Source of the DNA: a virus
Lineage: Duplodnaviria > Caudoviricetes
Strand: one strand, 5' to 3'
Virus record (IMG/VR): IMGVR_UViG_2595698952_000001
Span: 128,001 to 192,000 of that record
DNA length: 64,000 nucleotides
Shown: in pieces, positions 39,801 to 42,348 of the stretch
Layout of the letters: each line of letters starts with the position of its first letter
Numbering within the stretch: position 1 is the stretch's first letter
Notes under the pieces: generated by a model
Seen by the model: only the letters and a program-made list of their open reading frames with translations
Told to the model about the DNA's origin: nothing
Database searches by the model: none
Made by a program: the position numbers and the translations under genes

Positions 39801-40631
39801 ATGAAAAAGCTTTTGGTAGGTTTGTTGGCAATCCTGGCGTTCTCCGCTCACGCTACTGATGTTACCATTACGACGGGCCAGCAAGGTCTGACGTACAACG
39901 CCACGTACGGCGTGAATCTTGCCAGTGCTCTGAATGAGTTCGGCAACAAGTCCACTGTGGTACCGTCGAAAGGTTCCCTGGACAACCTGGACAAAGTTGC
40001 TGCCGGTTCTGCGCAGATTGGTTTTACCCAGGCAGACGCTTTCCAGTTCTGGCGCTCACAGCATCCGAACGAAGCACAGAACGTAGACATCGTTGGCCAG
40101 CTGGGTGACGAGTGTGTCTTCGTGGCTGTCAAGAAAGAAGGTAAGGTTGGCGGTGAAGCCGATCTGAAAGAAGGCATTAAGATTGCGGTCGGTGAACCCG
40201 ACTCTGGTTCTTACGCCAGTTGGCAATACCTGCAAGGTTTGGTGAAGCAATACGCAAAAGCTGAAACCTACGCGAAAGGCGGTATCCGTTCTCTGTCCAA
40301 AGTGGCCACGGGTGAATACGACGCGTTCATGTGGGTAAGCGCACCGGGCAAGAATAACAAATTCCTCGAAGCAGTTAACCAGGATAGCTCTGGTCTGAAA
40401 CTCATCGACATGAACAACTGGAACGTCAACGATAAACTGCCTAACGGGCAAGCAGTCTACGAGAAGAAGTCTGCTAAAGTTGATAACTCTGCGTGGTTCG
40501 GTGGTGATGTGAAAGTGCCGTGCACCAAAACGTTGGTGGTTGCTAATACCGACGCCGGTGACGAACTGCTGGAAGCCGTTTCTACTATCCTCCTCAAGAA
40601 TGCTCCACGCATCATGGGGACGGGTAAGTAA
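39801..40631 (+). CDS. TAXI-family TRAP transporter solute-binding protein
   Basis: Signal peptide ending AHA; ITTGQQGLTY, SKGSLDNL, IGFTQAD, IAVGEPDSGS motifs. Confidence 0.8.
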   Translation: MKKLLVGLLAILAFSAHATDVTITTGQQGLTYNATYGVNLASALNEFGNKSTVVPSKGSLDNLDKVAAGSAQIGFTQADAFQFWRSQHPNEAQNVDIVGQLGDECVFVAVKKEGKVGGEADLKEGIKIAVGEPDSGSYASWQYLQGLVKQYAKAETYAKGGIRSLSKVATGEYDAFMWVSAPGKNNKFLEAVNQDSSGLKLIDMNNWNVNDKLPNGQAVYEKKSAKVDNSAWFGGDVKVPCTKTLVVANTDAGDELLEAVSTILLKNAPRIMGTGK

Positions 40632-40688
40632 GTGCTGACGTGTAAAGGGCACTGGCTGGGCTGATAACCCCGCCGGGACGGTTTCATC

Positions 40689-41212
40689 TGAGGGGTTGGG
40701 TGAAGTGAAGAAACGTGGCACACCAATAAGTCCACGTTAACCGGATTGCATAAAGCACTACCTGCGGGTAGGCAATCCTGCCGTCTAACATTATTCGGTG
40801 ATTAAACATGGAAGAGTTGTTCAGAGCGTTTCTGTACCGAATGGGTACCTGGTTGAAAGACCTCAAGCTCTGGAAGCTCGATTGCTATTGGTTATCAGGA
40901 TGTGGGACTGAACGCCATAAACCTGTTTTAGGACGAGAGTCCTCAACCCAGGCGAAGTCCGTTACGGACGAAGGTCAAGCACCGGCCCATTAAGCCGACT
41001 CGCTGACATAGGCAACCTTCACCCCACAATCTGAATGTAACTGATGGGATTGAGTTCCCAGTGTGAAAGAGTAGCAGTGTGCTACTGAGTTCCTCCCTGG
41101 GACTGCTGAGCAGCGAGGGAATAGGGCCAAGAAGAAAGTAAGTAGGGTTGGTGCTTGGAGGCGCTAAGACCGGGGGATACCCTGGCTCAGAAGAAGAAGT
41201 CCATCAACCTCA
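40689..41212 (+). ncRNA. candidate large ornate structured RNA (~525 nt)
   Basis: Closing stem TGAGG/CCTCA; domain stems GGGTGAAG/CTTCACCC and TGATGGG/TCCATCA; more than ten internal helices; directly upstream of tRNA-Gly. Confidence 0.65.
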
Positions 41213-41218
41213 CTTAAT

Positions 41219-41294
41219 GCGAGTATAGCTCAGCTGGTAGAGCTTCTGGTTCCCAACCAGACGGTCGTGAGTTCGAATCTCATTGCTCGCTCCA
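41219..41294 (+). tRNA. trnG: tRNA-Gly(CCC)
   Basis: Cloverleaf, TCTGG-TTCCCAA-CCAGA, TCCA end. Confidence 0.92.
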
Positions 41295-41403
41295 ACAAAA
41301 TCAATGACTTATAGCGATTTCCCCATTTCGCTACAAGACAACCTAAGTATATGTAAAACAACCAAGACGTGTGCGAATTCGAAGTTGAGTTCTCAGACGT
41401 ATT

Positions 41404-42151: not shown

Positions 42152-42157
42152 AACAAT

Positions 42158-42277
42158 AGTCGCCTAGCTCAAGATTAGAGCACACCTTACGACCAATACT
42201 GACCAACACGCACCGCGGTGCAATAATGGCGGTGGCGTGATGTGCGGTTACCGGTTCAAGTCCGGTGGTGACTTCCC
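42158..42277 (+). ncRNA. tRNA-like RNA with a ~50-nt structured insertion replacing the anticodon loop
   Basis: Acceptor AGTCGCC/GGTGACT, D-arm GCTC/GAGC, T-arm ACCGG-TTCAAGT-CCGGT; ends T-CCC. Confidence 0.65.
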
Positions 42278-42284
42278 TATAATG

Positions 42285-42347
42285 GCTACTCCCGGTCGGT
42301 CTGGGGTCGTCTGTAAAGACGAGGATGGTTCAAATCCGTCAGTGGCA
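42285..42347 (+). ncRNA. minimal tRNA-like cloverleaf (63 nt) with Tyr-like CTGTAAA loop
   Basis: GCTACT/AGTGGC, CCCGG/CTGGG, TCGTC/GACGA, GATGG-TTCAAAT-CCGTC. Confidence 0.5.
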
Positions 42348-42348
42348 A

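What the first reader, a model, noticed from the sequence alone, without database searches (positions are those of the whole stretch)
40689..41212. ~525-nt two-domain ornate RNA at the head of the main tRNA run
Seen: between the TAXI gene and tRNA-Gly almost the whole gap pairs. A closing helix TGAGG(40689)/CCTCA(41208) encloses domain 1, closed by GGGTGAAG(40698)/CTTCACCC(41017), and domain 2, closed by TGATGGG(41042)/TCCATCA(41200). Internal helices include AACGTGG/CCACGTT (40712/40732), GGATTGC/GCAATCC with nested CTACC/GGTAG (40743-40778), ATTCGGTG/TACCGAAT (40793/40835), CCTGGTTGA/TCAACCCAGG (40848/40943), AGGAC-GAGA-GTCCT (GNRA loop) and AGTAGCA/TGCTACT (41070/41080). A possible pseudoknot pairs ACCAATA(40722) with TATTGGT(40886). 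Established: ROOL and GOLLD are large ornate RNAs of broadly similar size, often found next to tRNA genes in phages, with unknown function. Inference: this is a ROOL/GOLLD relative or a new class of large ncRNA in a nucleus-forming enterobacterial jumbo phage.
Basis: partly seen in the sequence, partly recalled or inferred. Interest (0 to 1): 0.85.

Follow-up and report, generated by a model that had tools for sequence, protein, structure and literature searches.

The report
Structured phage RNA carrying a small gene
The gap before the phage's tRNA genes holds a roughly 555-base folded RNA, shared by a group of giant enterobacterial phages and absent from the RNA family catalogue, that also encodes a small helical peptide, so it is a coding RNA with conserved architecture rather than a pure non-coding one.

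Summary
Window 40658-41212 (+) is a real, conserved element. I collected 28 distinct homologues, all from SPN3US-like jumbo phages (Seoulvirus, Erskinevirus, Wellingtonvirus, Machinavirus) and related metagenome contigs. Rfam 15 matches nothing there, so it is not ROOL, GOLLD, tmRNA, RNase P or an intron by those models.

Covariation supports a 5' four-way-junction domain with a pseudoknot just upstream of a Shine-Dalgarno-like site. It also supports a 3' hairpin array ending in a long hairpin as conserved as the neighbouring tRNAs.

Its local hairpins are.

Its first ~40 codons show frame-specific purifying selection (pN/pS 0.44, p=2e-6). It is predicted to form a 30-residue basic amphipathic helix. 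Its last third evolves like structured RNA, and its UAA stop sits in a conserved hairpin loop.

Best reading: a bifunctional (coding plus structural) transcript, closest in architecture to S. aureus RNAIII. Expression, translation and function remain untested.

The parts
40658..40670 (+). P1 hairpin (GGG/CCC, 7-nt loop). This is the first conserved base of the element. Loop bases 40663-40666 form the 5' strand of pseudoknot PK1.
   Evidence: Stem invariant in 26 of 26 distinct rows. Sequence upstream is not alignable between groups.
40677..40785 (+). Four-way junction closed by P2 (40677-81/40781-85). It holds variable P3 (40684-88/40699-703), P4 (40713-18/40732-37), P5 (40743-49/40772-78) and P5b (40758-62/40767-71).
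   Evidence: 88.8% of cells paired against 73.2% in shuffles; covariation 0.403 against 0.145 (0 of 500 shuffles as high); slid controls <=0.14. After a one-column alignment correction, P2 is paired in 123 of 130 cells and P5 in 164 of 164.
40792..40802 (+). PK1 3' strand (UAUU, 40792-95), followed by a Shine-Dalgarno-like GGUGAU (40797-802) 5 nt before the AUG.
   Evidence: PK1 is 96.4% paired against 88.2% in shuffles (0 of 500). Two pairs change on both sides: AU23/GC4 and GC15/AU11. The SD-like motif was read and is weaker in Seoulvirus.
40808..40993 (+). Small ORF of 61 aa (PHROG 26199). Codons 1 to ~40 code for a basic amphipathic helix. The last ~20 codons overlap hairpins Ha (40930-43), Hb (40957-69) and Hc/Hd.
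   Evidence: Open in 28 of 28. N-terminal part: pN/pS 0.44, p=2.3e-6, in frame 0 only; C-terminal part: 0.88, not significant. AF2: helix at residues 2-30 with pLDDT 71-82, tail <50. PHROG hit.
40978..41004 (+). Hc inner helix (AGC 40978-80 / GCU 41002-04) enclosing the stop-codon hairpin Hd (40983-86/40994-97). UAA 40991-93 lies in the Hd loop. UCGCU 41000-04 is also the 3' strand of the candidate long-range helix LR1, whose 5' strand is AGUGA 40704-08.
   Evidence: Hc inner helix 100% paired (invariant); Hd 92% paired with two covarying pairs. LR1: 75% paired against 69.7%; covariation 0.18 against 0.105 (2 of 500).
41026..41086 (+). Invariant linker ACAAUCUGA (41026-34), invariant hairpin He (41045-60) and covarying hairpin Hf (41070-86).
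   Evidence: Invariant columns listed. Hf is 98.1% paired, with 4 of its 6 pairs changed on both sides.
41087..41128 (+). Hg, a variable modular hairpin.
   Evidence: At least four unrelated sequence variants, whose distribution does not follow overall relatedness (alignments).
41145..41211 (+). Hh, the terminal long hairpin with a conserved purine-rich internal loop. It ends 7 nt before tRNA-Gly.
   Evidence: Outer helix 96.6% paired with 5 covarying pairs. It is 92-97% identical to Machinavirus records, where nothing else in the gap matches.

Best explanation
Window 40658-41212 (+ strand) is one conserved transcript unit that is both a structured RNA and the mRNA of a small peptide.

Shown:
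- A 5' four-way-junction domain whose first hairpin loop pairs with four bases just upstream of a Shine-Dalgarno-like site (pseudoknot PK1).
- An ATG-started ORF of 54-69 codons. Its first ~40 codons are under protein-level purifying selection and are predicted to form one basic amphipathic helix.
- A 3' part, beginning inside the last third of the ORF, made of conserved hairpins with invariant loops and linkers. The UAA stop lies in a hairpin loop.
- A terminal hairpin as conserved as the tRNAs next to it.

Inferred:
- The 5' domain gates ribosome access to the ORF through PK1. It possibly also contacts the sequence just after the stop codon (LR1).
- Ribosomes reaching the stop must unfold hairpins Ha-Hd, so translation and the 3' fold are coupled.
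- RNase P cleavage of the adjacent tRNA makes the 3' end, and the terminal hairpin Hh protects it.
- The invariant 3' loops are recognised by a conserved partner (host or phage protein, ribosome or RNA). This gives the RNA a role beyond coding, as in S. aureus RNAIII, which carries the delta-haemolysin gene.
For: Conservation:
- 28 distinct homologues in four genera.
- One copy per genome.

Structure:
- 5' domain: 88.8% of cells paired against 73.2% in shuffles; covariation 0.403 against 0.145; 0 of 500 shuffles as high.
- PK1: 96.4% against 88.2%, 0 of 500.
- 3' helices: 94.7% against 86.3%; covariation 0.244 against 0.106; 0 of 500.
- Slid controls are all far lower.
- Many G-U pairs exist only on the + strand, the strand of the tRNAs. 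Examples: PK1 GU in 24 of 28, Hh GU in 24 of 28.

Coding:
- ORF open in 28 of 28.
- N-terminal pN/pS 0.44 (p=2.3e-6) in frame 0, against 1.02 and 1.26 in the other two frames.
- C-terminal part 0.88, with a low substitution rate.
- AF2 helix at residues 2-30.
- Net charge +1 to +6 and hydrophobic moment 0.4-0.7.

RNA-level constraint:
- Window versus Asesino differ by two compensatory pairs in hairpin Hb (GTCCG..CGGAC against GTCTA..TAGAC). These changes alter the peptide.
- Identity between groups is 0.71-0.73 in the 3' domain against 0.48 in the coding N-terminus.
- Hh is 92-97% identical in Machinavirus records, where the flanks do not match.
Against: - No expression data. The runs I could lay were DNA contigs of related phages, or of unknown kind. 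So neither a discrete transcript nor translation is shown.
- Shine-Dalgarno-like sequences are weak in Seoulvirus.
- Folding energies are only modestly better than shuffles, and not at all for the 5' domain in 4 of 7 sequences.
- The sequences come from four related groups, so the number of independent compensatory events is limited. R-scape was not available.
- LR1 is only suggestive (2-7 of 500 shuffles reach it) and competes with an invariant local helix.
- In Machinavirus-like phages a TATATG motif sits at the ORF start. If this is a promoter, it would separate the 5' domain from the ORF.
- A trans-acting role for the RNA is pure inference.
Confidence: 0.5

Rival explanations
1. An ordinary small protein gene with unusually structured untranslated regions. 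All RNA structure acts only in cis, on stability, processing and translation of this one mRNA. There is no function beyond making the peptide.
For: The ORF is real by evolutionary criteria. PK1 sits next to the ribosome-binding region, as in translational leaders. Hh at the 3' end could be a simple stabiliser or terminator.
Against: The RNA parts are more conserved than the coding part: 0.71-0.73 against 0.48 between groups. Loops and linkers, not only stems, are invariant. Hh is conserved at the level of the tRNAs across genera. The ORF's last third is constrained as RNA and not as protein. That is more constraint than stabilising hairpins usually need.
Confidence: 0.25
2. A pure non-coding ornate RNA of the ROOL/GOLLD kind. 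The ORF is never translated and stays open by accident or through RNA constraints.
For: Size of about 555 nt, many covarying hairpins, variable peripheral hairpins and a position in a phage tRNA array. Stop-free frames of 45 codons or more are common on both strands of this element. Annotators disagree about ORFs here.
Against: No Rfam match at all. The excess of synonymous change is frame-specific in the N-terminal 41 codon columns (p=2.3e-6; other frames 0.54 and 0.91). An ATG and the same UAA are kept in 28 of 28 sequences, although nucleotide identity between groups is only 48% there.
Confidence: 0.1
3. Three independent products that merely stay adjacent: a ~150-nt 5' RNA, a small leaderless or short-leader mRNA, and a ~220-nt 3' stable RNA processed out of the tRNA precursor. 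The 3' RNA would resemble the small stable RNAs in the phage T4 tRNA cluster (recalled from memory).
For: The TATATG-type motif at the ORF start in Machinavirus-like sequences also recurs before tRNAs. Flanking genes vary while the element stays in the tRNA region. One metagenome relative has a tRNA about 80 nt upstream.
Against: Order and spacing are kept in 28 of 28. PK1 links the first hairpin to the ORF's ribosome-binding region. The 3' structure begins inside the ORF. LR1, if real, ties the 5' domain to the stop region.
Confidence: 0.1
4. A hok-like type I toxin mRNA: a heavily folded mRNA that keeps a small toxic membrane peptide silent until it is processed.
For: A small ORF inside a long, conserved, folded mRNA, with possible 5'-3' contacts.
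Against: No transmembrane segment: the maximum Kyte-Doolittle 19-residue mean is <=1.05 in 8 of 8 peptides examined. No Rfam match to any toxin-antitoxin RNA. No conserved antisense feature was seen, though none was specifically searched for.
Confidence: 0.05

Closest known systems
Staphylococcus aureus RNAIII, which carries hld (delta-haemolysin); a dual-function RNA (recalled knowledge, not tested here)
   Same: About 500 nt, many hairpins, and a short ORF for an amphipathic helical peptide in the middle. Conserved 5' and 3' hairpin domains flank it and are more than untranslated regions.
   Different: No sequence or structure homology. Here the ORF's last third is itself part of the conserved fold. 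Base-pairing targets of this RNA are unknown. It is a phage element inside a tRNA gene array.
ROOL and GOLLD large ornate RNAs (Rfam)
   Same: Several hundred nucleotides, many helices, variable peripheral hairpins, found beside tRNA genes in phages, function unknown.
   Different: No match to either covariance model. This RNA holds a conserved ORF under selection. It occurs in enterobacterial jumbo phages only. Oligomer formation was not testable.
tmRNA
   Same: A structured RNA with an internal reading frame whose stop codon lies in a hairpin loop, and a pseudoknot upstream of the frame.
   Different: No tRNA-like domain: ARAGORN and Rfam are negative. The frame has its own ATG in 28 of 28 sequences and is 54-69 codons long.
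Translational riboswitches and leaders that use a loop-to-RBS pseudoknot or kissing loop, such as cobalamin or SAM-II classes (recalled)
   Same: A multi-helix junction with conserved unpaired junction bases, and a hairpin loop that pairs next to the ribosome-binding site.
   Different: No Rfam riboswitch model matches. No ligand or partner is known. The PK1 target lies just upstream of the SD-like site, not on it.
hok-family type I toxin mRNAs
   Same: A long, conserved, folded mRNA around a small ORF.
   Different: The peptide is a basic amphipathic helix without a membrane-spanning segment. No antisense partner was seen.

Membership tests
ROOL (Rfam) | Match to the family covariance model | tested here: not met
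   No hit at the gathering score over the whole window, at E<=10 in 40500-41400, or at E<=5 in six homologous loci.
ROOL / GOLLD | Non-coding: no conserved reading frame (recalled criterion) | tested here: not met
   ORF open in 28 of 28, with frame-specific pN/pS of 0.44, p=2.3e-6.
ROOL / GOLLD | Located next to tRNA genes in phage genomes | tested here: met
   tRNA-Gly starts 7 nt after the element in the window. tRNA arrays lie downstream in the annotated relatives.
ROOL / GOLLD | Homo-oligomeric RNA-only assembly (start of abstract seen in the listing) | not testable with these tools
   No RNA 3D or complex prediction is available.
GOLLD (Rfam) | Match to the family covariance model | tested here: not met
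tmRNA | tRNA-like domain (acceptor stem from the 5' and 3' ends, T arm) | tested here: not met
   ARAGORN finds no tmRNA. Rfam finds none. The 3' end forms a local hairpin, Hh.
tmRNA | Tag frame without its own start codon | tested here: not met
   An ATG-initiated frame is present in 28 of 28.
Dual-function (coding plus structured regulatory) RNA, RNAIII-like | Conserved RNA structure and a translated small ORF on one transcript | tested here: inconclusive
   Structure and coding selection are shown. A single transcript and translation are not shown (one search gave no RNA evidence).
Dual-function RNA, RNAIII-like | RNA acts in trans on other molecules | not testable with these tools
   Inferred only, from invariant loops and linkers.
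Riboswitch / translational leader | Match to a known aptamer family | tested here: not met
Riboswitch / translational leader | Conserved tertiary pairing at the ribosome-binding region | tested here: met
   PK1 is 96.4% paired, two pairs change on both sides, and 0 of 500 shuffles reach it.
Type I toxin mRNA (hok-like) | Small hydrophobic membrane-spanning peptide | tested here: not met
   Maximum Kyte-Doolittle 19-residue mean is 0.20-1.05 in 8 of 8 peptides examined.
PHROG 26199 (small phage protein, unknown function) | Profile match of the ORF product | tested here: inconclusive
   E=0.025 for the window protein, 7.6e-5 for SPN3US and 1e-49 for Machina. The family carries no function.

The most novel reading that the evidence does not exclude
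The element is an RNAIII-like bifunctional riboregulator or ribonucleoprotein of SPN3US-type jumbo phages. Its 5' domain clamps both ends of the reading frame: PK1 before the start codon and LR1 just after the stop codon. Translation therefore switches the fold. The near-invariant 3' hairpins include a purine-rich AAGAAGAAG internal loop that resembles an (ARN)n Hfq-binding motif (resemblance recalled, not tested). These hairpins would capture a conserved host or phage factor, or the RNA's own basic helical peptide, to reprogramme translation or RNA handling during infection.
Probability: 0.25. Interest if true: 0.85.

Novelty: new variant of a known kind. Interest (0 to 1): 0.65.

Why it matters
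Large conserved RNAs of unknown function are rare, and few are known from jumbo phages. None of the paper searches I ran found this one, and Rfam 15 has no model for it.

It combines two usually separate things: an ornate covarying fold and a small gene under selection. The stop codon is built into the fold, and a pseudoknot sits at the ribosome-binding region.

This makes it a tractable case for asking how translation and RNA architecture are coupled. The phages' relatives are reported to separate transcription from translation, which was not tested for this genome. The finding also corrects inconsistent annotation in dozens of phage records.

Tried and rejected
- **Rfam.** Gathering scores over the whole window, permissive E-values on 40500-41400 and permissive E-values on six homologous loci. 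Only tRNAs and chance hits: mir-278 at E=3.7 on the minus strand, and plastid UTR models lying over tRNAs.
- **ARAGORN.** No tmRNA.
Rejected by comparison with homologues (alignments).
- **PK2 (P4 loop with the Tyr-Trp codons).** Weak. A ~97%-identical relative in run X1 changes the loop AA to CG without compensation in the target's core.
- **RNAalifold on the raw MAFFT alignment.** It missed P2 because of a one-column misalignment. Realignment with covariance model R1 did not repair it. I corrected it by a scripted shift.
- **Sigma-70 promoter and intrinsic terminator scans.** Near chance, and none fits the element's ends.
- **Motif counts.** TATATATG: 0 in the window. GTATATG: 4 against 4.05 expected.
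- **Sequencing runs.** No run holds the exact stretch (best share 0.54). The four runs laid gave whole-phage DNA contigs or contigs of unknown kind, so there is no evidence on expression. A contig break near 40647 in X15 is not interpretable.
- **Protein homology search.** 3 close relatives only.
- **Pfam.** Nothing.
- **ESM Atlas.** Best score 0.75, no lead.
- **Metagenome pattern scan.** 41 loci, of which 8 were real by nhmmer. The rest were chance matches.
- **Minus-strand ORFs such as Kwan gp5.** Not conserved across groups.
- **Folding z-scores by sub-domain.** Too weak to discriminate.
- **The search of earlier findings.** Closed.
- **Supplements of papers.** Not consulted. No paper that I found deals with this locus.
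- **Not run.** R-scape and a complex prediction for the peptide.

Full report
**What is at the coordinates.**
- The window has a TAXI/NMT1-like solute-binding CDS at 39801-40631.
- tRNA-Gly(ccc) follows at 41219, the first gene of a ten-tRNA run.
- The 587-nt gap between them folds to -209.2 kcal/mol against -189.1 +/- 6.5 for dinucleotide shuffles (z = -3.08, 0 of 100 as low).
- Rfam 15 finds only tRNAs in the whole window at gathering scores.
- In 40500-41400 at E<=10 it finds only the tRNA and a chance mir-278 hit on the minus strand.

**Relatives.**
- blastn against 50,697 phage records found 49 records, all Erwinia, Salmonella, Escherichia, Proteus or 'Enterobacteria' jumbo phages.
- Asesino (Erskinevirus) matches 99% of the gap at 87.7% identity.
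- Wellingtonvirus records match the 3' 47-58% of the gap.
- Seoulvirus (SPN3US-type) records match the 3' 40% at about 70% identity.
- Machinavirus records match only the last ~65 nt, at 92-97%. In a 6-kb megablast these Machinavirus records otherwise matched only tRNAs.
- MAFFT of the unannotated gaps showed that the whole element is nevertheless alignable in all four genera.
- Two IUPAC pattern scans of IMG/VR and one of metagenome contigs added further loci. Of the 41 metagenome loci, 8 were real by nhmmer.
- I dropped 9 exact duplicates and 2 truncated copies. That left 28 distinct full-length sequences of 507-572 nt. Among the first 15 collected, pairwise identity was 51-91%.
- The element is single-copy in the window and in its 243,050-base virus record.
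- Annotation of this stretch is inconsistent. There is a + strand ORF in Asesino, Machina and ChrisDB, a - strand ORF in Kwan, and nothing in SPN3US, Caitlin and others.

**The ORF is real.**
- An ATG-initiated frame of 54-69 codons ending at the same UAA is open in 28 of 28 sequences.
- Open frames of 45 codons or more are common on both strands here, so openness alone is weak evidence.
- I summed over six phylogenetically separate pairs. The first 41 codon columns have pS 0.43 and pN 0.19, so pN/pS is 0.44. The synonymous fraction is 0.39 against 0.22 expected (binomial p=2.3e-6).
- The same columns read in the other two frames give pN/pS of 1.02 and 1.26 (p=0.54 and 0.91).
- The remaining ~25 codon columns show no coding signal (pN/pS 0.88, p=0.38) and a three- to four-fold lower synonymous rate.
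- The window and Asesino differ in hairpin Hb by two compensatory pairs (GTCCG..CGGAC against GTCTA..TAGAC). These changes alter the peptide from KSVT to TSIV.
- AlphaFold2 on a shallow 9-row alignment predicts one helix at residues 2-30 (pLDDT 71-82) and an unstructured tail (<50).
- The peptides carry net charge +1 to +6 and hydrophobic moment 0.38-0.70. None has a membrane-spanning segment: maximum Kyte-Doolittle mean <=1.05 in 8 of 8 examined.
- The product falls in PHROG 26199, of unknown function. It has no Pfam family, only 3 close homologues among 5.8 billion proteins, and no lead in the ESM Atlas.

**The 5' domain (40658-40802).**
- Conservation begins exactly at GGG 40658. Upstream sequence is not alignable between groups.
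- The structure I derived has:
  - hairpin P1;
  - helix P2 closing a junction that holds a variable hairpin P3 (absent in 10 of the 28 sequences);
  - P4, with a conserved 13-nt loop;
  - P5/P5b, with a conserved ACAAAGCAC internal loop.
- Counted on the MAFFT alignment A2, 88.8% of 841 cells pair against 73.2% in shuffles. The covariation score is 0.403 against 0.145 (0 of 500 shuffles as high), and slid controls give 0.06-0.14.
- MAFFT, and a covariance model built on it, misplace one column in the groups that lack one base pair of P5. After a scripted one-column shift, P2 pairs in 123 of 130 cells (AU12/CG7/GU7 at one pair) and P5 in 164 of 164.
- Four loop bases of P1 (40663-66) pair with 40792-95. 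That site lies just 5' of a Shine-Dalgarno-like GGUGAU (40797-802) and 13 nt before the AUG.
- This pseudoknot PK1 is 96.4% paired against 88.2% in shuffles (0 of 500). Two of its pairs change on both sides: AU23/GC4 and GC15/AU11.

**The 3' part (about 40930-41211).**
- Inside the last third of the ORF each group has hairpins. Their sequences are group-specific.
- The 3' part then contains:
  - helix Hc, closing hairpin Hd, whose 7-nt loop ends in the invariant UAA stop;
  - the invariant linker ACAAUCUGA;
  - the invariant hairpin He;
  - the covarying hairpin Hf;
  - a variable module Hg;
  - a purine-rich linker;
  - the long terminal hairpin Hh, with conserved internal loops.
- On alignment A4, 94.7% of 1093 cells pair against 86.3% in shuffles. 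Covariation is 0.244 against 0.106 (0 of 500), and slid controls give 0.03-0.07.
- Many pairs are G-U on the + strand only, so the fold belongs to a + strand RNA, the strand of the tRNAs.
- Identity between groups is 0.62 for the 5' domain and 0.48 and 0.47 for the two ORF parts. It is 0.71 for stop hairpin to Hf, 0.41 for Hg and 0.73 for the 3' end.

**Long-range contacts.**
For the three together, the covariation score equals the shuffled value.
- RNAalifold itself proposed another contact. On 28 sequences, junction bases AGUGA 40704-08 could pair with UCGCU 41000-04, three bases after the stop hairpin.
- This contact, LR1, is 75% paired against 69.7% in shuffles (7 of 500). Covariation is 0.18 against 0.105 (2 of 500). 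Its fourth pair reads GC10/UA8/AU2/unpaired 8, and three different standard pairs occur within one close group.
- LR1 competes with the invariant local AGC/GCU of Hc, so it remains a candidate, possibly an alternative conformer.

**What it is not, and what it resembles.**
- Six homologous loci also gave no Rfam match inside the element.
- Paper searches on SPN3US with non-coding RNA, jumbo phage with structured RNA, SPN3US with RNA-seq, and ROOL/GOLLD with phage found nothing on this locus.
  - For the jumbo-phage review I read only the passages returned.
  - For the antisense-oligomer paper I read only those.
  - For the ROOL/GOLLD cryo-EM preprint I saw only the listing and the start of the abstract.
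- In architecture the closest analogue I know (recalled) is S. aureus RNAIII: about 500 nt, many hairpins, and an internal ORF for an amphipathic peptide.

**Mechanism and its limits.**
- Shown: conservation, fold, the pseudoknot at the ribosome-binding region, a coding signature confined to the N-terminal two thirds, and the stop codon inside the fold.
- Inferred: translational gating by the 5' domain, unfolding of Ha-Hd by terminating ribosomes, 3' end formation by RNase P at the adjacent tRNA, and recognition of the invariant 3' loops by a conserved partner.
- No expression evidence could be obtained. No run holds the exact sequence. The four runs laid gave DNA-type whole-phage contigs at about 97% identity, or contigs of unknown kind.
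- Thermodynamic z-scores by sub-domain are unimpressive, from +0.8 to -3.7. The case therefore rests on covariation among four related groups, which shuffles can overstate.

Noticed in passing
window 41087-41128 and the homologous stretch in L001, L014, L016, L068 and others (A4 columns ~187-228): The variable hairpin Hg comes in at least four unrelated sequence versions. Their distribution cuts across overall relatedness: the window differs from its ~88%-identical relative Asesino; pSal-SNUABM-04 carries the SPN3US/Asesino version while other Machinavirus records carry another; L014 differs from Kwan. This looks like module exchange by recombination between co-circulating phages.
   Followed up: partly
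L003, L021, L022 (Kwan, Wellington and a metagenome relative), terminal hairpin: These three carry a strongly diverged terminal hairpin Hh. The outer stem and overall shape are kept, but the inner conserved loops are replaced. The close relative L019 keeps the standard version.
   Followed up: no
L005-L008, L065-L069, L003, L014, downstream of the element; window 41347-41353: A TATATG-containing motif (TATATATGC/T, TATATGTCGG) recurs 45-55 nt after the element, before tRNA genes and a ParB-like gene. In Machinavirus-like sequences it also sits exactly at the small ORF's ATG. It may be a phage RNA polymerase promoter. It is not enriched in the window.
   Followed up: partly
16-30 nt upstream of the element start in window (40636-40640), L003, L019, L005, L008, L009: A short shared CTGAC motif is the only similarity upstream of the conserved GGG start. 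Its distance from the start varies and its meaning is unknown.
   Followed up: no
between the element and tRNA-Gly: L016; contig of run X1/X3 at window 41216-41218: Some relatives carry an extra tRNA-sized insertion (~84 nt in X1/X3; a tRNA-like sequence in L016) between the terminal hairpin and tRNA-Gly, again with a ~6-nt spacer after the hairpin.
   Followed up: no
window 42152-42348; L001 3145-3265: Asesino is annotated with a 121-nt 'tRNA-Ile(aat)' in the position where the window has a ~197-nt stretch without any ARAGORN or Rfam tRNA call. It lies between tRNA-Ser and tRNA-Met. It could be a degenerate, intron-bearing or mis-called tRNA.
   Followed up: no
window 41187-41199 (AGAAGAAGAAG in the 3' strand of Hh): The conserved purine run reads as three or four A-R-N triplets. 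This is the pattern recalled for the distal face of Hfq, but part of it is predicted to be base-paired.
   Followed up: no
L001, L003, L004, L005, L006, L007 annotations: Public records annotate this stretch inconsistently: a + strand ORF, a - strand ORF, overlapping ORFs or nothing. The conserved small ORF is missing from SPN3US-type, Caitlin and several pEa_SNUABM records.
   Followed up: yes
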